The notes under the pieces were generated by a model, which was not told the DNA's origin, ran no database searches, and was given only the letters and a program-made list of their open reading frames with translations. Below are positions 6,570 to 25,073 of a stretch of 64,000 bases of DNA, in pieces (the first letter of the stretch is position 1; each line of letters opens with the position of its first letter). The translations under genes and the position numbers were made by a program. This DNA is from an uncultured Burkholderiales bacterium (GTDB taxonomy: Bacteria > Pseudomonadota > Gammaproteobacteria > Burkholderiales > Burkholderiaceae_C): positions 2,162-66,161 of the forward strand of contig CALMIL010000025.1 of the NCBI GenBank assembly GCA_937864005.1, written 5' to 3'.

Positions 6570-7934
6570 CTACTGGATCGACAAGCGGCGCATCAGATCG
6601 TAAAGCGTCGGGCGCGTCACACCGAGGATCTCGGAAGCCTTCACGATATTGCCGTTCGCGCGGGCGAGCGCGGCGACAACCGCACCGCGCTCCGCCTTCT
6701 CGCGTACCGCACGCAGATCGAGCAGGGGATCACCCTCGAGCTGCGCGTCGCTCGGCCTGGGCAGGCCGAGGTCTTCGCTGGTCACCCGATTGCCGTCGGC
6801 CATGATCGCGACCCGCTTGATCGTGTTCAGCAACTCCCGCACGTTTCCGGGCCAGGCATAGGCGTCGATCGCCGACAGCGCGTCTTCGCTGAAGCTCATC
6901 GAACTGCGGTTCTGCTCGCGTGCGAACCTGCGCAGGAAGGCCTGGGCGAGCAGCACGGCATCACCCTGCCGGCTTCGCAGCGGCGGGATGTCGATGACGA
7001 TCTCCGCCAGCCGGTAGTAGAGGTCCTGCCTGAAGCGGTTCGTCTTGATGAATTCGGCCAGATCCTGATGCGTTGCGCAGACCACCCGGACGTCGACCGC
7101 TATCACGTTGCGCCCGCCAAGACGTTCGATCGTGCGCTCCTGCAGAAAGCGCAGCAGCTTGGCCTGCAGCGACTGGGGAAGGTCGCCGATCTCGTCGAGC
7201 ATCAGCGTGCCGCCGTTGGCGGTCTCGATGCGTCCGATCGTGCTCTTGGAGGCGCCGGTGAACGCGCCCCTCTCGTAGCCGAACAGTTCGCTTTCGAGAA
7301 GGTTCTCGGGAATCGCCGCACAGTTGATCGCAACAAACTTGCCGCTCCGCTTCGACAAGTGGTGGAGCGCCTGCGCGAGTACCTCCTTGCCCGTTCCGCT
7401 TTCGCCGAGCAACAGCACCGAGGCATCGCTGGGCGCGATCTTCTCGATGGTGCGGCAGATCCGCAGCAGATCGGCGTCTCGCGTCACGAGCCCGGCGAGC
7501 GCGTCGGGCTGCTTCATTTCCCGCAGGCGCCGGTTCTCGCTTTGCAACTCGGACAGGCGAAACGCCCGATCGATGATGAGGCCCAGCAGGTCGGGATCGA
7601 AGGGCTTGGCAAGGAAATCGTAGGCGCCGAGGTCGATCGCACGCAATGCATTGCCCTGGTCGTTCTGGCCGGTCAGGACGATGACCTTCACCTCCGGGTC
7701 GAGTTCGAGCATCTGGACCAGCAGCCTGAAGCCCTCCTGCGCCGTGTCGGGGTCCGGCGCAAGCCCGAGGTCCATCGTCACCACGGCGGGCGAATGGCGG
7801 CGAAACTGGGCCAGCGCGCTTTCCCCGTCGTTCGCAGTGACCGACTCGAATCGATCGAGCGACCACTTGATCTGCTTTTGGAGCGCGAGGTCGTCCTCGA
7901 CGATCAGCAGCGGAGGCCTTTTTTCCGGATTCAT
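6570..7934 (-). CDS. prsR: Sigma-54-dependent response regulator (PEP-CTERM-box response regulator PrsR type)
   Basis: Receiver domain (PLLIVEDDLALQKQIKWSL, ...VTMDLGL). AAA+ domain with Walker A LLLGESGTGKE and the sigma-54 contact motif ERGAFTGA. C-terminal HTH ILGVTRPTLYDLMRRL. Located in an XrtA locus. Confidence 0.85.
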   Translation of the reverse strand: MNPEKRPPLLIVEDDLALQKQIKWSLDRFESVTANDGESALAQFRRHSPAVVTMDLGLAPDPDTAQEGFRLLVQMLELDPEVKVIVLTGQNDQGNALRAIDLGAYDFLAKPFDPDLLGLIIDRAFRLSELQSENRRLREMKQPDALAGLVTRDADLLRICRTIEKIAPSDASVLLLGESGTGKEVLAQALHHLSKRSGKFVAINCAAIPENLLESELFGYERGAFTGASKSTIGRIETANGGTLMLDEIGDLPQSLQAKLLRFLQERTIERLGGRNVIAVDVRVVCATHQDLAEFIKTNRFRQDLYYRLAEIVIDIPPLRSRQGDAVLLAQAFLRRFAREQNRSSMSFSEDALSAIDAYAWPGNVRELLNTIKRVAIMADGNRVTSEDLGLPRPSDAQLEGDPLLDLRAVREKAERGAVVAALARANGNIVKASEILGVTRPTLYDLMRRLSIQ

Positions 7935-8038
7935 GGCGTCTTCACGAAGGGGCTCGGGCTTGCGGAAACACGCGGCGTTCGCGGCGTCGATTGTCCCACC
8001 CGCTTGCCTGCTCGAATGCAGCGTGCCTTGGACTCGGC

Positions 8039-16332: not shown

Positions 16333-17553
16333 GTGGCCAAGCTGCTCTACCTGGTGCACCGCATGCCGTATCCGCCCGACAAGGGCGACAAGGTGCGCTC
16401 GTACCATCTTCTCAAGCACCTGGCGGCGAAGCACCGCGTGTTCGTCGGCAGCTTCATCGACGACCCGCAAGACGAAGCGCATGTCGAGACGTTGCGCTCA
16501 CTCTGTGCGGGTCTGCACCTGACGCGCCTGAATCCGGCGCGCGCGCGAATCGCCAGCCTGTCCGGCCTGCTCGAAGGCCAGGCCCTCACGCTGAGCTACT
16601 ACCGCGATGCGGCGCTGCAGCGCTGGGTACAGGAAACCGCGCGCCGCGAACGCGTCGACGCCGTCATCGTGTTCTCGTCGGCGATGGCGCAGTACGCACA
16701 AGGCCTGCGGCTGCCGACGCTCGTGGACTTCGTCGATCTCGATTCTGCCAAGTGGACGGAGTACGCCGCCCACCACCGCTGGCCGCTTTCGTGGCTGTAC
16801 CGGCGCGAGGGCGAGCAGTTGCTCAGCCACGAGCGCGCCGTCGCCGCACGCTCGGCACGCTCGTTCTTCTCCACCGAGAGGGAGACCGCGCTCTTCCGGA
16901 GCAAGGCGCCCGAAAGCGCACACACGTGCGAAGCGATGTGCAACGGTGTCGACGCCGACTACTTCGCACCCGACGCCTCGCGCGCCTCGCCCTTTGCCAG
17001 TGGCGAGCTACCCCTGGTTTTCACCGGCGCGATGGACTACTGGCCCAACATCGACGCCGTGACCTGGTTCGCCACCGAGATATTGCCCGGTCTGCGCGCC
17101 AAATGGCCTGCGTTGCGCTTTCACATCGTCGGTCGCAGCCCGACACCTGCCGTGCATGCGCTCGCCGGCGAAACCGTGAACGTGACGGGCACCGTGCCCG
17201 ACGTGCGCCCCTATCTGCAGCACGCCGCCGTGGTCGTCGCACCGTTGCGGCTGGCGCGCGGCATCCAGAACAAGATCCTCGAGGCGATGGCGATGGGCCG
17301 GCCGGTGGTGGCGTCGCGCGAATGCGCAGAGGCGATCGAGGCGCGGCGCGGCACCGAACTCGTCCACGCGCCCGACGCCGAAGCCTTCGCCCGCGAGGTC
17401 GATGCATTGCTGAGCAACCCCGCGCGCGCTGCCGCGCTCGGCGCGGCGGGCCGCCGCCGCGTCCAGCAGGACTACACCTGGGACGCCCACCTCGCGGCCA
17501 TCGACAGCCACCTGGCGTCGCTGCTGTGCGCGCGTCAGCCGCTGGCGGCCTAA
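16333..17553 (+). CDS. GT4-family glycosyltransferase (PEP-CTERM/EpsH1-associated sugar transferase 1 type)
   Basis: GTG at 16333 lies 2 nt after the upstream stop. N-terminus VAKLLYLVHRMPYPPDKGDKVRSYHLLKHLA; C-terminal GT-B motif ...NKILEAMAMGRPVVAS. Confidence 0.8.
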   Translation: MAKLLYLVHRMPYPPDKGDKVRSYHLLKHLAAKHRVFVGSFIDDPQDEAHVETLRSLCAGLHLTRLNPARARIASLSGLLEGQALTLSYYRDAALQRWVQETARRERVDAVIVFSSAMAQYAQGLRLPTLVDFVDLDSAKWTEYAAHHRWPLSWLYRREGEQLLSHERAVAARSARSFFSTERETALFRSKAPESAHTCEAMCNGVDADYFAPDASRASPFASGELPLVFTGAMDYWPNIDAVTWFATEILPGLRAKWPALRFHIVGRSPTPAVHALAGETVNVTGTVPDVRPYLQHAAVVVAPLRLARGIQNKILEAMAMGRPVVASRECAEAIEARRGTELVHAPDAEAFAREVDALLSNPARAAALGAAGRRRVQQDYTWDAHLAAIDSHLASLLCARQPLAA

Positions 17554-17819
17554 GAGGTTGAGAGGCAACCCAATGCACCCGCGTAAGCCCCCAGAACAGG
17601 CTCAAACAAGGCGCAAACCGGAGCTGGGTTCGGAACCCAGCGAGGATTTGAAACGCGGGGTGAGCCTGTTCTGGGGGCTTACCCGCAGGGCCAGGGTATC
17701 CAAGGGCCCTGCGCGACGTTGCATCGCTTGCCCGCACGCGAGTGCGGGCAGCGCGCTGCGCCTTGCTCAGGGCCCTTGGCCACCCCGGCGCGGGCGCATT
17801 GGGTTGCCCCTCAACCTCT
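17553..17819. repeat. 267-bp nested inverted-repeat element (MITE/REP-like or structured RNA) between the glycosyltransferase stop and xrtA
   Basis: The 31-bp terminal arms 17553-17583 and 17789-17819 are reverse complements at 29/31 positions. Inside is a perfect 21-bp pair (17584-17604 / 17661-17681) enclosing the hairpin CTGGGTT-cgg-AACCCAG. A perfect 12-bp pair (17700-17711 / 17768-17779) encloses the hairpin GCCCGCAC-gcga-GTGCGGGC. Confidence 0.8.
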
Positions 17820-17838
17820 GAGCGGACATGGAAGCAAC

Positions 17839-19422
17839 ATGAGCACCGTCGCTGCCGACCTGCGCACCGCCTCCGGATGGCGAGCCGCCTTGCCCGCGTT
17901 CATGGCGCTCGTGGCGGCGATCCTTCTGCTCTATCGCGAAACCGCGATGGCGATGGTCGGCATCTGGTGGCGCTCGGAGACCTTCACCCATGCCTTCCTC
18001 GTCGTGCCGATCGCCTTGTGGCTGGTCTGGCGCAAGCGCGAACAACTCGCCGCCCTCACGCCACGCGCGCAGCCCTGGGTGTTGCTGCCGCTGCTCGCGG
18101 CGGCGGTGGTCTGGTTCGTGTCGGATCTGGTCGTCGTCAACGCCGCGTCGCAGTTCGCGTTCGTGGCGATGCTCGTTCTGGCCGTGCCGGCGGTGCTGGG
18201 CCTCGAAGTGGCGCTCACGATCCTCTTCCCGTTGCTGTTCCTGTTCTTCGCCGTGCCGTTCGGCGAGTTCGTCGTGCCCGTCTTGATGGAGTGGACGGCC
18301 GATTTCACCGTCACTGCGCTTCGAGCGACCGGCGTGCCGGTCTTTCGCGAGGGACAGCACTTCATCATTCCATCGGGCAGTTGGTCGGTGATCGACGAAT
18401 GCAGCGGCGTGCGCTACCTGATGGCGTCGTTCATGGTCGGAACGCTCTTTGCGTACCTCAACTACAGCTCGTACCTGCGGCGCGCGGTCTTCATGCTGCT
18501 CTCGATCCTGGTGCCGATCGTCGCCAACTGGCTGCGCGCCTACATGATCGTGATGCTCGCTCACCTGTCGGACAACACGATCGCCACCGGCGTCGATCAC
18601 ATCCTGTACGGCTGGGTCTTCTTCGGCGCGATCATCTTCATCCTCTACATCGTCGGCGCCCGCTGGTCGCAGCCCGACGCGGCGCCGGCAAGCGCGGGCA
18701 CGCCCGGCAGGATGCGCGGCTTCGGCGGCACCGGATCCGCGTCGACCCGCGTGATGCTCGCCACCGCGCTCGGCGCTGCCGTCATCGTCACCCTGCCCCC
18801 GCTCGCCGTCGGCGGCCTGCAGCGCGCCGAAGGCACCGCCGCCGCGGCCACCGTCGATCTGCCGATGCACCTGGCCGGCGGCTGGTCCGCCGAAGGTGCC
18901 CAAATCGCCTCATGGACGCCGATGTTCGGCGACCCCTCCGCCGCCGCGAACCAGGTCTATGCAGGCCCGGCAGGCACGGTAGGCGTCCACCTTGCCTACT
19001 ACCGCGGCCAGGGCGAGGGCCGCAAGGTGGTCAGCTCGCAGAACATGCTCGTCGGCATGCGCGATCGCGAGTGGAGCCTGCCGGTCGTCGGCGATGACCG
19101 CACCGTCGCGATGGGGCCGCAGGCCGTCACGGTGCGCACAGCCGAGATCCTCGGCCAACCGCAGGCCGGCTCCGAGCACCGGCCGCACCTCGTCGTCTGG
19201 CGCTTCTACTGGATCGACGGCCGCTTCATCGCAGGCGATGCCGCAGCCAAGATTGCCGGCGTGCTGGCGCGGCTGCGGGGCCACGGCGACGAGGGCGCGG
19301 CGATCGTTCTCTACGCCGACGGCAAGACGGTGGCGGCGTCGAACGCCGCGCTCGAAGCCTTCATGCAGGCCAATCTGGGCAGCTTCGAGACGCTGTTGCG
19401 GCGCACGCGCGACGCGCGCTGA
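17839..19422 (+). CDS. xrtA: Exosortase A (XrtA) fused to an EpsI-family domain
   Basis: The ATG at 17839 gives MSTVAADLRTASGW...YRETAMAMVGIWWRSETFTHAFLVVPIALWLVW. There are about 8 TM helices with exosortase catalytic contexts VIDECSGVRYL (Cys), VANWLRAY (Arg) and VDHILYGWVFF (His). The C-terminal ~200 aa (...WTPMFGDPSAAANQVYAG...VHLAYYRGQGEGRKVVSSQN...) look like EpsI. The upstream 40 codons of the track ORF lie inside the palindromic element. Confidence 0.85.
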   Translation: MSTVAADLRTASGWRAALPAFMALVAAILLLYRETAMAMVGIWWRSETFTHAFLVVPIALWLVWRKREQLAALTPRAQPWVLLPLLAAAVVWFVSDLVVVNAASQFAFVAMLVLAVPAVLGLEVALTILFPLLFLFFAVPFGEFVVPVLMEWTADFTVTALRATGVPVFREGQHFIIPSGSWSVIDECSGVRYLMASFMVGTLFAYLNYSSYLRRAVFMLLSILVPIVANWLRAYMIVMLAHLSDNTIATGVDHILYGWVFFGAIIFILYIVGARWSQPDAAPASAGTPGRMRGFGGTGSASTRVMLATALGAAVIVTLPPLAVGGLQRAEGTAAAATVDLPMHLAGGWSAEGAQIASWTPMFGDPSAAANQVYAGPAGTVGVHLAYYRGQGEGRKVVSSQNMLVGMRDREWSLPVVGDDRTVAMGPQAVTVRTAEILGQPQAGSEHRPHLVVWRFYWIDGRFIAGDAAAKIAGVLARLRGHGDEGAAIVLYADGKTVAASNAALEAFMQANLGSFETLLRRTRDAR

Positions 19423-23996: not shown

Positions 23997-25073
23997 ATGG
24001 CTGGCATGCGCATCGGGCTCGTCGGCCCTTTGCCGCCGCCGGCAGGCGGCATGGCGATGCAGACGCAGCAACTCGTCGAGCTGTTGCGGGGCGAACGCGC
24101 CGACGTGCTGCTCGTGCCCACCAATCTGCCGTACCGCCCGGCCTGGGTCGAACGCCTGCATGGCGTGCGCGCCCTGTTTCGGATGTTCCCGTTCCTGGTC
24201 GCGCTGTGGCGTGCCGCCGGGCGCAGCGATGTCATGCACGTGATGGCCAACTCCGGCTGGTCGTGGCATCTCTTCGCAGCGCCGGCGATCTGGGTCGCTT
24301 CGCTGCGGCGCGTACCCGTGATCGTCAACTACCGCGGCGGCGAGGCCGCGACATTTCTTCAGCGGTCGGCGGGACTGGTGCGCGCGACGATGCGTCGCGC
24401 TTCGCGGCTGGTCGTTCCTTCGAGTTTCCTGCAGGAAGTATTCGCCCGCCACCAGATGGCTGCCGACGTGGTACCGAACATCATCGATCTGGCGCGGTTT
24501 CACCCCGCAGAGCCGTGCGCGACAGTGCAACTGATCGTCGCGCGCAACCTGGAGCCGATCTACGACAACGCCACGGCGCTGCGTGCGTTCGCGCAGGTGC
24601 TTACAGAGTACCGCGACGCGCGCCTCGTCGTGGCCGGCACCGGCCCCGAGGAACCTGCACTGCGGCGCCTCGCAGCCGAGTTGGGAATTGCCGAGCGGGT
24701 GCATTTCGCCGGTCGCCTGGAACGCGAAGCGATGGCCCGGCTGTTGCGCGAGAGCCGCGTCGCGCTCAACCCGAGCCTGGCAGACAACATGCCGAACTCG
24801 GTGCTCGAGGCACTTGCCAGCGGCGTGCCCGTCGTCAGCACGAACGTCGGCGGGGTGCCCCATATCGTGGCGGACGAAGAGTCGGCGCTATTGGTGCCGC
24901 CCGCCGATCCCACGGCGATGGCCGGTGCCGTCTTGCGATTGCTGCATGAGCCCGCGCTGGCAGAGCGACTGCGGGCCGCAGGGCTGCGCAGCGTGGCCGC
25001 GTATACGTGGGAGCAAGTGGGCCCGCGTTGGGGCGCGGCGTACCGATGTGCGTTGACGCAGGGGCGGCAATGA
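23997..25073 (+). CDS. GT4-family glycosyltransferase
   Basis: The ATG at 23997 lies 5 nt after the upstream stop (MAGMRIGLVGPLPPPAGGMA...). Motif DNMPNSVLEALASGVPVVSTNVGGVPHIV. The first 42 codons of the track ORF overlap the previous gene. Confidence 0.75.
   Translation: MAGMRIGLVGPLPPPAGGMAMQTQQLVELLRGERADVLLVPTNLPYRPAWVERLHGVRALFRMFPFLVALWRAAGRSDVMHVMANSGWSWHLFAAPAIWVASLRRVPVIVNYRGGEAATFLQRSAGLVRATMRRASRLVVPSSFLQEVFARHQMAADVVPNIIDLARFHPAEPCATVQLIVARNLEPIYDNATALRAFAQVLTEYRDARLVVAGTGPEEPALRRLAAELGIAERVHFAGRLEREAMARLLRESRVALNPSLADNMPNSVLEALASGVPVVSTNVGGVPHIVADEESALLVPPADPTAMAGAVLRLLHEPALAERLRAAGLRSVAAYTWEQVGPRWGAAYRCALTQGRQ

What the first reader, a model, noticed from the sequence alone, without database searches (positions are those of the whole stretch)
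17553..17819. 267-bp nested-palindrome element inserted exactly between a glycosyltransferase stop codon and xrtA
The only large non-coding gap inside the core operon is filled by a highly structured element.
- 31-bp terminal inverted repeats match at 29/31 positions. The left arm begins on the last base of the TAA stop.
- These arms flank two long sub-hairpins. One has a perfect 21-bp stem (17584-17604 / 17661-17681). The other has a perfect 12-bp stem (17700-17711 / 17768-17779).
- Each sub-hairpin carries a further small perfect hairpin.

This looks like a MITE/REP-type mobile repeat or a structured RNA (a three-way-junction-like fold) in the operon mRNA, 20 nt upstream of the xrtA ATG. It could act as a processing or stability determinant, a transcriptional attenuator, or a translational insulator that sets XrtA stoichiometry. 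I saw no target-site duplication.
Basis: seen in the sequence. Interest (0 to 1): 0.65.

Follow-up and report, generated by a model that had tools for sequence, protein, structure and literature searches.

The report
MITE inserted in stp1 stop codon
The structured 265-bp spacer before xrtA is a small non-coding mobile element (a MITE of an undescribed family) that landed in the stop codon of the upstream gene and rebuilt that stop, so it is most likely a tolerated passenger and not a purpose-built RNA switch.

Summary
The nested palindrome is real (fold z = -14 on both strands). It is a 265-bp miniature inverted-repeat transposable element, window 17554-17818. Its 13-bp termini (GAGGTTGAGAGGC) are identical in all 24 copies found with a two-terminus pattern.

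In 80 related xrtA loci the stp1-xrtA spacer is about -30 to +40 nt in most (18-19 nt in the four closest) and none carries the element. The window is that junction plus 268 bp, with the ancestral TGA and 17-nt spacer intact at the right edge.

About 40 complete copies occur in roughly ten Rubrivivax, Ideonella and Rhizobacter MAGs, at C|TNA|G targets. In 21 of 39 scored copies, one copy of the duplicated triplet is a gene's stop codon.

The TNA duplication and GAG ends point to an IS5-family (IS1031-like) transposase acting in trans. No parent IS was found.

Base pairing covaries strongly (39 of 108 pairs) but equally on both strands. Rfam, terminator and promoter scans and coding tests are negative, so a dedicated regulatory RNA is not supported.

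One feature is unexplained: insertion is polar (TGA 34, TCA 3).

Verdict: a new member of a known kind, of moderate interest.

The parts
16333..17553 (+). stp1, the PEP-CTERM/XrtA-system glycosyltransferase. Its present stop codon is the left copy of the duplicated triplet.
   Evidence: TIGR03087, 555.9 bits against a cutoff of 316.65. The public gene call in the identical contig puts it at 16333-17553.
17551..17553 (+). Left copy of the 3-bp target duplication (TAA). It now serves as the stp1 stop codon and is probably TGA mutated to TAA.
   Evidence: Relatives end stp1 with ...CTGGCGGCC TGA. Family copies are flanked TNA...TNA.
17554..17566 (+). Left terminus GAGGTTGAGAGGC, the inferred transposase recognition and cleavage end. 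The paired arm extends to 17583.
   Evidence: All positions but position 10 are invariant in the 24 aligned copies. Those 24 were selected with a pattern that fixes the termini, and copies found with an interior pattern show some variation.
17584..17681 (+). Sub-hairpin A: a 21-bp perfect stem with an apical small hairpin. This module is independently deleted in ~170-bp variants and enlarged in 337-346-bp variants elsewhere.
   Evidence: helices 2-4; 19 pairs change on both sides.
17690..17789 (+). Sub-hairpin B, with a 12-bp perfect core and an apical 9-bp hairpin.
   Evidence: helices 6-8; 10 pairs change on both sides.
17806..17818 (-). Right terminus. On the - strand it reads GAGGTTGAGGGGC, one mismatch to the left terminus. 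The paired arm begins at 17789.
17819..17821 (+). Right copy of the duplicated triplet (TGA). This is the ancestral stp1 stop codon, displaced 268 bp downstream.
   Evidence: Junction comparison with L001, L006, L002 and L009.
17822..17838 (+). Ancestral 17-nt stp1-xrtA spacer with the SD-like GGAAG of xrtA. It is untouched by the insertion.
   Evidence: The closest relatives have an 18-19-nt spacer of similar sequence. It lies outside the predicted fold.
17839..19422 (+). xrtA (exosortase A fused to an EpsI domain).
   Evidence: TIGR03109, 338.8 bits against a cutoff of 208; TIGR02914 EpsI; public gene call.

Best explanation
The element is a non-autonomous transposon (MITE) of a family that appears undescribed.

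**Shown**
- It is a discrete 265-bp unit with conserved 13-bp inverted termini.
- It is flanked by a duplicated TNA triplet at a C|TNA|G target.
- It is present in many unrelated sites in Sphaerotilaceae genomes.
- It is absent from the stp1-xrtA junction of every relative examined.

**Inferred**
- A DDE transposase of the IS5 family (IS1031-like subgroup), encoded elsewhere, binds the two termini. It makes 3-nt staggered cuts at TNA and pastes the element in, and repair of the gaps duplicates the triplet.
- Here the target was the TGA stop codon of stp1. The duplication rebuilt a stop for stp1 (later TGA to TAA) and left the original TGA, the 17-nt spacer and the xrtA ribosome-binding site intact on the far side. 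Neither gene was damaged, so the insertion survived.
- This also explains why about half of all copies sit exactly on stop codons. In GC-rich, gene-dense genomes, stop codons are a large share of the harmless TNA sites.
- The nested hairpins are a property of the element's DNA, kept palindromic in both strands. Possible causes are use of a folded form in transposition or template-switch correction of quasipalindromes.
- In the operon the element is probably transcribed through. Any effect on xrtA would be a by-product of the insertion, for example cleavage of the long double-stranded stems.
For: **Empty site**
- Of the 80 related loci, 69 have stp1 immediately upstream of xrtA. Their spacers are mostly -30 to +40 nt, with a few up to 133 nt.
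- The spacer is 18-19 nt in the four closest loci. The window has 285 nt.
- Relatives read GGCGGCC TGA <18 nt> ATG. The window reads GGCGGCC TAA [element] TGA <17 nt> ATG.
- The family profile finds no copy in L001-L080.

**Family**
- 23 copies of 265-267 bp have both termini intact in GTDB representative genomes, up to 7 per MAG. They are 74-92% identical to the window copy and share its internal order.
- More copies and size variants turned up with an interior pattern plus the profile.
- Copies within one MAG differ by only 2-6 nt, which indicates recent activity.

**Duplication and target**
- Left flank: TGA in 32, TAA in 2. Right flank: TGA in 33, TCA in 3, TAA in 2.
- C precedes the triplet in 33 of 39 copies, and G follows it in 30 of 37.

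**Stop codons**
- One triplet is the stop of a convincing gene in 21 of 39 copies.
- Two further genes end at the TGA inside the terminus.
- Rough expectation from site availability is about 45%.

**Classification**
- The IS1031 subgroup of IS5 prefers TNA (PMC1676026).
- C|TNA|G with a 3-bp duplication is documented in the IS5/PIF-Harbinger superfamily (PMC4482050).

**Non-coding**
- GC by codon position is flat, pN/pS is 0.92, and stop-creating substitutions are not depleted.
- No gene is called there in public annotation.

**Tolerated in operons**
- At least 10 copies lie between co-directional genes with the next start codon no more than 55 nt away.
- No terminator or promoter is found on the operon strand.
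Against: - No autonomous IS with these termini was found, so the transposase family is inferred from the duplication and end sequence only.
- Copy number in the window's own genome is unknown. There is one copy in 64 kb, and the window's own arm variant has no other real match in GTDB representatives or JGI metagenomes.
- Insertion is strongly polar relative to the central base of the triplet (34 TGA: 3 TCA). A symmetric DDE complex does not predict this.
- Pairing is conserved by compensatory change well beyond shuffled and slid controls. That could reflect a selected folded form, which a purely passenger view does not require.
Confidence: 0.82

Rival explanations
1. The insertion has been co-opted. 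The long double-stranded stems in the polycistronic mRNA are cut by RNase III or slow the polymerase. This uncouples stp1 and xrtA expression and sets XrtA dosage. The origin is still a MITE, but with a maintained function here.
For: - The fold is very stable and immediately precedes the intact xrtA ribosome-binding site.
- Relatives keep the two genes tightly adjacent or overlapping, so the insertion must have changed their coupling.
- The left triplet mutated to another stop (TAA) and not to a sense codon.
- Neisserial MITE transcripts are reported RNase III substrates that affect neighbouring mRNAs (review PMC2229807).
Against: - There are no expression data.
- The only assemblies with this xrtA are identical, so conservation of the insert over time cannot be judged.
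- There is no strand asymmetry of the kind expected for an RNA under selection.
- The same element sits in many unrelated junctions.
Confidence: 0.15
2. The element moves by a non-DDE, strand-specific route. Candidates are an IS200/IS605-like single-strand transposase inserting 3' of TGA with the right-hand TGA belonging to the element, or a recombinase needing homology in a 3-nt core. In that case the 'duplication' is not a staggered-cut repair product.
For: - Orientation relative to the triplet is nearly fixed (34:3), as in IS200/IS605 insertion.
- The element has large subterminal hairpins.
- The filled and empty sites cannot show which TGA came from the target.
- Non-TGA flanks cluster in two MAGs.
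Against: - The element has perfect 13-bp inverted termini that pair with each other. IS200/IS605 ends lack this.
- Both flanks change together (TAA/TAA in L088, TCA/TCA in L101), as expected for a true duplication of the target.
- Only 5 bp of the target are conserved, too little for guide-directed recombinases.
- Copies sharing a flank type are not clearly each other's nearest relatives.
Confidence: 0.08
3. It is a dedicated cis-regulatory RNA of the XrtA operon (riboswitch-like element, attenuator or three-way-junction sensor) and not mobile DNA.
For: It has a stable three-helix architecture with compensatory changes in every helix, and it lies just upstream of xrtA.
Against: - It is absent from all 80 related xrtA loci.
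- It is found next to unrelated genes, with a target duplication.
- The only Rfam matches are generic long-hairpin miRNA models far below their gathering scores.
- There is no U-tract terminator.
- The fold is equally good on the antisense strand.
Confidence: 0.03
4. It is a neutral single-copy palindromic spacer with no relatives.
For: There is a single copy in the 64-kb window, and no exact match to the window's own arm variant elsewhere.
Against: Dozens of homologous copies exist in related genomes.
Confidence: 0.01

Closest known systems
IS5 family, IS1031 subgroup, and MITEs derived from such insertion sequences
   Same: Both show a 3-bp duplication with TNA preference (PMC1676026). Both have inverted termini beginning GAG; the GAG end as a subgroup trait is my recollection of the ISfinder tables and was not verified here. 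The element's small size fits a deletion derivative.
   Different: No IS1031-type element with these termini was found. The element is almost wholly palindromic inside, which is not expected from a simple internal deletion of an IS. It also inserts with a strong polarity.
PIF/Harbinger-IS5 ('PHIS') superfamily elements and their MITEs (Tourist/mPing; NuwaII group)
   Same: NuwaII elements use the same C|TNA|G target with a 3-bp duplication (PMC4482050). Tourist-type MITEs are likewise mobilised in trans.
   Different: Those are eukaryotic elements. There is no sequence similarity, and no polarity is reported for them in what I read.
Correia elements / NEMIS of Neisseria
   Same: Both are short non-coding MITEs with inverted termini. 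They are often co-transcribed with neighbouring genes and fold into long hairpins that RNase III can cut (PMC2229807).
   Different: Correia elements are 107-155 bp and A+T-rich, with a TA duplication and IHF or promoter motifs. There is no homology, and RNase III cleavage is untested for the present element.
ERIC/IRU, YPAL/RU-2, RUP and other bacterial MITE-like repeats
   Same: All are dispersed, imperfectly palindromic repeats in intergenic DNA, some lying inside operons (PMC2229807).
   Different: They differ in termini, duplication length and hosts. None is reported with a TGA/TNA target or with a three-helix nested architecture of 265 bp.
REP/BIME elements (RAYT-mobilised) and IS200/IS605-derived palindromic elements
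   Same: Both are GC-rich extragenic palindromes near gene ends. IS200/IS605-type insertion is orientation-specific.
   Different: REPs are 20-40 nt units without inverted termini or duplications. IS200/IS605 ends are not inverted repeats and make no duplication.

Membership tests
MITE (non-autonomous TIR transposon) | Terminal inverted repeats conserved among copies | tested here: met
   The 13-nt termini are identical in 24 of 24 aligned copies except position 10, and the arms pair for about 30 nt. Those 24 copies were found with a pattern that fixes the termini.
MITE (non-autonomous TIR transposon) | Target-site duplication of fixed length flanking each copy | tested here: met
   3-bp TNA on both sides. 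Left flank TGA in 32 of 39, right flank TGA in 33 of 38. TAA/TAA and TCA/TCA pairs are also seen.
MITE (non-autonomous TIR transposon) | Empty site in related genomes | tested here: met
   The relatives' stp1-xrtA junction equals the window junction minus 268 bp. The profile finds no hit in L001-L080.
MITE (non-autonomous TIR transposon) | Small size and no coding capacity | tested here: met
   265 bp. The open frame shows flat GC by codon position, pN/pS 0.92 and no depletion of stop-creating changes. No gene is called there.
MITE (non-autonomous TIR transposon) | Multiple dispersed copies within a genome | tested here: inconclusive
   Met in related MAGs, with up to 7 complete copies plus fragments per MAG. 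In the window's own genome only 64 kb could be read, and it holds one copy.
MITE (non-autonomous TIR transposon) | Termini shared with an autonomous IS that supplies the transposase | tested here: inconclusive
   No IS-sized element with GAG... termini and a TNA duplication occurs in ~1.9 Mb of held DNA. Stray termini are a mini-derivative and a chance hit. Whole genomes could not be searched.
IS5 family / IS1031 subgroup derivative | 3-bp duplication at TNA | tested here: met
   The criterion is from PMC1676026.
IS5 family / IS1031 subgroup derivative | Mobilised by a DDE transposase of that subgroup | not testable with these tools
   This needs the cognate transposase gene and a mobilisation assay.
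REP/BIME (RAYT-associated) | Short (20-40 nt) palindromic units without terminal inverted repeats or duplication | tested here: not met
   The unit is 265 bp, with inverted termini and a duplication.
IS200/IS605-derived palindromic element | No inverted termini, no duplication, insertion 3' of a fixed short motif in one orientation | tested here: not met
   The orientation bias is present (34:3). However, the termini are perfect inverted repeats and the flanks covary as a duplication.
Curated structured RNA family (Rfam) | Match at or above a family's gathering score | tested here: not met
   The best matches are 30-33 bits to eukaryotic miRNA hairpin models whose gathering score is 90.
Intrinsic terminator / attenuator | GC-rich hairpin followed by a U-tract on the transcribed strand | tested here: not met
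   No site on the + strand in 17000-18400. The sequence after the element is TGAGCGGACATGG.

The most novel reading that the evidence does not exclude
The family may be a stop-codon-seeking element with intrinsically polar insertion. It enters C|TGA|G almost always with the same internal orientation relative to the G (34:3), even where no gene end is involved. This would mean its transposition complex reads the central, asymmetric base of the target, or needs complementarity between a donor flank and the target. That mechanism has not been described for TIR-bearing bacterial MITEs or IS5-type elements, as far as my limited literature search found. If so, the evolutionarily maintained three-helix fold could be part of that mechanism, for example as a folded single strand that defines left and right ends.
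Probability: 0.12. Interest if true: 0.7.

Novelty: new member of a known kind. Interest (0 to 1): 0.38.

Why it matters
For the exosortase locus, the finding removes a tempting false lead. The structured spacer is not a conserved regulatory device of XrtA systems. It is a lineage-specific insertion, so it should not be carried into models of PEP-CTERM operon control without expression data.

For mobile-DNA biology, it adds a well-delimited MITE family from Sphaerotilaceae (Rubrivivax, Ideonella, Rhizobacter).
- Its target and duplication are clear.
- There is recent activity in some genomes.
- It comes in several size variants.
- It shows how a TNA-duplicating element can sit on stop codons inside operons without harming either gene.

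The strong insertion polarity and the symmetric but well-maintained pairing are small puzzles that a transposition assay could settle.

In practical terms, such elements break short-read assemblies. Many copies here lie at contig ends. They can also mislead gene callers and RNA-motif screens in GC-rich genomes.

Tried and rejected
1. **Known RNA family.** Rfam at a permissive threshold gave only generic hairpin miRNA models far below their gathering scores.
2. **Strand-specific RNA.** A first count on the top-strand prediction suggested more G.U than A.C pairs. A fair test used pairs predicted on both strands and gave 24 against 32, with MFE -210.2 against -208.6. The asymmetry was an artefact of the prediction.
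3. **Small protein or selected open frame.** An SD-like GAGAGG lies 7 nt before a near-invariant ATG, and the frame ends at the right TGA. It is intact in 19 of 31 copies. It was rejected because GC by codon position is flat, pN/pS is 0.92 and within the range of control frames, and stop-creating changes are 3 of 29 against 2 of 23 in a control frame.
4. **Special targeting of stop codons.** It is not needed. Availability of CTGAG sites outside genes predicts roughly 45% at stops after correcting my under-calling of genes (raw 14%), against 54% observed. This estimate is rough.
5. **Parent IS.** Stray termini in L093 and L095 are a chance hit and a 62-bp derivative. L184, L113 and L125 are truncated or long-variant fragments. 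A structural search for IS-sized GAG...TNA elements found none.
6. **Sibling copies of the window's arm variant.** There are none in GTDB representatives. The one metagenome hit lies inside a coding sequence and is chance. The subfamily-specific interior block gave one more full copy (L228), one defective copy running into poly-G (L226) and one chance hit (L227).
7. **Plasmids.** No similarity.
8. **Viral contigs.** The matches are an unrelated phage coding region.
9. **Hairpin A as an independent nested module.** Rejected, because the ~170-bp variants have different deletion endpoints, which fits repeated palindrome deletion.
10. **Heritable flanking triplet.** Not supported.
11. **Presence/absence polymorphism.** The assemblies that carry the identical XrtA are identical over 13.6 kb, so they are uninformative.
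12. **Literature.** Two IS reviews could not be read, and one table search found nothing.
Full report

Yes.
- Outer arms: 17550-17583 / 17789-17822, 34 nt, 91% complementary.
- Sub-hairpin A: a 21-bp perfect stem, 17584-17604 / 17661-17681.
- Sub-hairpin B: a 12-bp perfect core, 17700-17711 / 17768-17779.
- Each sub-hairpin has a small apical hairpin.

The fold is far beyond chance. MFE is -204.8 kcal/mol against -127.9 +/- 5.4 for shuffles, z = -14.3. The reverse strand folds equally well, z = -15.0. That was the first sign of a palindrome in the DNA, as opposed to a strand-specific RNA.

The 23-nt arm occurs only at its own two positions in the window, with 0 expected. Nothing else in the 64 kb has comparable nested symmetry.

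The flanking genes are as stated.
- stp1 matches TIGR03087 at 556 bits.
- xrtA matches TIGR03109 at 339 bits and carries an EpsI domain.
- stp2 and the XrtA-system deacetylase lie nearby.
- Public gene calls on the identical contig agree and call nothing inside the spacer.

**2. It is an insertion.**

I fetched 80 related xrtA loci from GTDB representative genomes. All are Burkholderiales, mostly the Rubrivivax group, and the best XrtA identity is 78-86%.

In 69 of the 80 loci, stp1 lies immediately upstream of xrtA. Their spacers are mostly -30 to +40 nt, with a few up to 133 nt. In the four closest loci the spacer is 18-19 nt. The window has 285 nt.

Base by base:
- Relatives read ...CTGGCGGCC TGA <18 nt> ATG.
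- The window reads ...CTGGCGGCC TAA [GAGGTTGAG...CTCAACCTC] TGA GCGGACATGGAAGCAAC ATG.

So the ancestral TGA, the 17-nt spacer and the SD-like GGAAG of xrtA all sit intact at the right edge. A second stop triplet closes stp1 at the left edge. The element proper is 17554-17818 (265 bp), flanked by TAA and TGA. A profile of the family finds no copy in any of the 80 related xrtA loci.

**3. It belongs to a dispersed family.**

The exact 23-nt arm has no match in GTDB representatives. A pattern requiring only the two 13-nt termini 215-245 nt apart found 23 copies of 265-267 bp. They come from eight MAGs labelled Rubrivivax, Ideonella or Burkholderiales, with up to seven copies in one MAG.

These copies are 74-92% identical to the window copy and always have the same internal order. 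Because that pattern fixes the termini, their invariance in this set is partly by construction.

A scan with a conserved interior block, followed by a profile search, added more complete copies and many fragments at contig ends. It also showed size variants:
- A 62-bp mini-derivative.
- ~170-bp forms that have lost sub-hairpin A. Each has different deletion endpoints.
- 337-346-bp forms with extra small hairpins at the apex of A.

Some subfamilies have changed both termini in concert (GAGGCTGAG...CTCAGCCTC and GAGTGTGAG...CTCACACTC). In one MAG the copies differ by only 2-6 nt, which indicates recent multiplication.

The family was not found in plasmids or viral contigs. Its terminal sequence does not appear in any bacterial context in the searchable literature.

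**4. Target and duplication.**

Across 39 scored copies:
- The left flank is TGA in 32 and TAA in 2.
- The right flank is TGA in 33, TCA in 3 and TAA in 2.
- Matched pairs TAA/TAA and TCA/TCA occur.
- The base before the triplet is C in 33 of 39. The base after is G in 30 of 37.

In the window copy the two triplets differ by one base (TAA against TGA). Since all relatives end stp1 with TGA, the left copy most likely mutated to the other stop codon.

**5. Why exactly on a stop codon?**

In 21 of 39 copies, one copy of the triplet is the stop codon of a convincing gene. In 18 the gene reads into the left end. In 3 a gene on the other strand uses the right-hand TCA. In two more copies the upstream gene ends at the TGA inside the terminus itself.

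The duplication regenerates a stop, so such insertions damage nothing. I counted CTGAG sites in the same DNA. After correcting for my crude gene caller (58% called coding), roughly 45% of harmless sites should be stop codons, against 54% observed. This estimate is rough, but no special stop-codon homing is needed.

At least ten copies lie between co-directional genes with the next start no more than 55 nt away, as in the window. The family is therefore repeatedly tolerated inside probable operons.

**6. What moves it?**

A TNA preference is the stated hallmark of the IS1031 subgroup of the IS5 family (PMC1676026). C|TNA|G with a 3-bp duplication is documented in the wider IS5/PIF-Harbinger superfamily (PMC4482050). 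I also recall that IS1031-type ends begin GAG, but I could not verify that in a held paper.

The most likely engine is therefore an IS5-family DDE transposase acting in trans. This step is inferred. I found no autonomous element with these termini, and whole genomes could not be searched.

**7. What about the structure?**

Pairing is conserved by compensatory change in every helix. Of 108 pairs, 39 have changes on both sides. Shuffles give 20.2 +/- 2.1, and none of 500 reaches the observed value. Sliding the partners gives 2-8. In all, 97.4% of cells are paired.

A first look suggested an excess of G.U over A.C pairs, which would point to one functional strand. That was an artefact of predicting the structure on one strand. 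With pairs predicted on both strands the counts are 24 G.U against 32 A.C, and the mean MFE is -210.2 against -208.6.

The constraint is therefore symmetric. Two readings fit, both inference.
- A folded form of either DNA strand is used in transposition.
- The arms are kept alike by template-switch correction of quasipalindromes. This is a known mutational process in bacteria (my own knowledge, not checked here).

The repeated independent loss of hairpin A fits the usual instability of long palindromes.

Other tests of a functional RNA or peptide were negative.
- Nothing in Rfam reaches threshold.
- There is no terminator-like or promoter-like site on the operon strand.
- An open frame runs from an SD-like GAGAGG plus ATG at element position 20 to the right-hand TGA. 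It is intact in 19 of 31 copies. It shows no coding signature and no depletion of stop-creating substitutions.

**8. Consequence for the operon (inferred).**

The insertion moved stp1 and xrtA 268 bp apart, so any translational coupling is lost. The xrtA ribosome-binding site is intact and lies outside the fold. No intrinsic terminator was added.

The long perfect stems are plausible RNase III substrates by analogy with neisserial MITE transcripts (PMC2229807). Whether this changes XrtA dosage is unknown.

All eight contigs that carry this exact XrtA appear to share the same arrangement. The two I could read are identical to the window over 13.6 kb, so there is no population-level evidence either way.

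**9. An unexplained feature.**

Read in the element's own orientation, the central base of the triplet is G in 34 copies, C in 3, A in 2 and T in none. The binomial test for G against C gives p of about 1e-7. In the exhaustive perfect-terminus set it is 19:3, p = 0.0009.

The bias also holds in all 18 copies that are not on stop codons, where co-orientation with neighbouring genes is only about 7:3. Selection through the upstream gene therefore does not explain it. A symmetric transposase complex on identical ends would not predict it either.

I tested three explanations and none is supported:
- A strand-specific fold.
- A required stop for the internal frame.
- A flank that travels with the element.

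An IS200/IS605-like single-strand mechanism would give polarity. It is contradicted by the perfect inverted termini and by flanks that change together.

**10. Verdict.**

The dedicated regulatory-RNA half is not supported. The element is a new member of a known kind, of moderate interest. The insertion polarity is the one point worth an experiment.

Noticed in passing
family-wide (L081-L103, L133-L207, L228; window 17551-17821): Insertion is strongly polar. In the element's own orientation the duplicated triplet is TGA in 34 copies, TAA in 2, TCA in 3 and TTA in 0. The bias also holds in copies that are not on stop codons.
   Followed up: partly
L095:2050-2111; L107:1140-1310; L135:2167-2335; L141:3692-3856; L194:2901-3072; L137:4044-4380; L152:2260-2605: There are size variants of the element. 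One is a 62-bp form with little more than the termini. The ~170-bp forms have lost sub-hairpin A, each with different deletion endpoints. The 337-346-bp forms carry extra small hairpins at the apex of A.
   Followed up: partly
L133, L140, L228 (GAGTGTGAG...CTCACACTC); L136, L191 (GAGGCTGAG...CTCAGCCTC): Some subfamilies have changed both 13-nt termini in concert, so even the presumed transposase-binding ends covary.
   Followed up: no
L082 and L084, left junctions: The upstream gene's reading frame runs 8 nt into the element and stops at the TGA inside the terminus (element positions 6-8). The insertion therefore replaced the last codons of the gene and supplied a new stop.
   Followed up: partly
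element positions 7-22 and 266-268 (window 17560-17575 and 17819-17821): An SD-like GAGAGG lies 7 nt before a near-invariant ATG. The frame stays open across the whole element and ends at the right-hand TGA in 19 of 31 copies. Tests found no coding signature and no selection for openness.
   Followed up: yes
L003:1800-1839; L011:5892-6000; L010:5925-6000: In other lineages the same stp1-xrtA junction is lengthened by short tandem repeats, for example CCTCCCGA x3 in L003 and GGCRTGAGC-like units in L011. This junction appears to tolerate insertions generally.
   Followed up: no
L088, L096, L082, L092 (MAG CAXTHW...): Copies within this one MAG differ by only 2-6 nt in 265, which indicates a recent burst. 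An active transposase should therefore be encoded in that genome.
   Followed up: no
window 7758-7785 / 7937-7964, and 24379-24401 / 24524-24546: Two other moderate inverted repeats are present in the window (28 nt at 79% and 23 nt at 83%). The second lies inside a glycosyltransferase gene.
   Followed up: no
L226:7244-7400: A defective copy of the element runs straight into a long poly-G tract in a long-read MAG contig. This is probably an assembly artefact.
   Followed up: no
L212:8088-8110; L227:594-614: A 23-mer of the window's arm and a 21-mer of hairpin A each occur once inside unrelated coding sequences. The family profile finds nothing around them, so they are treated as chance matches.
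   Followed up: partly
many loci (e.g. L091, L105, L106, L113-L117, L123, L125, L143, L144, L149, L151, L156, L175, L178, L182): A large share of the family's copies lie at contig ends in short-read MAGs. The element breaks assemblies, so copy numbers from MAGs are underestimates.
   Followed up: no
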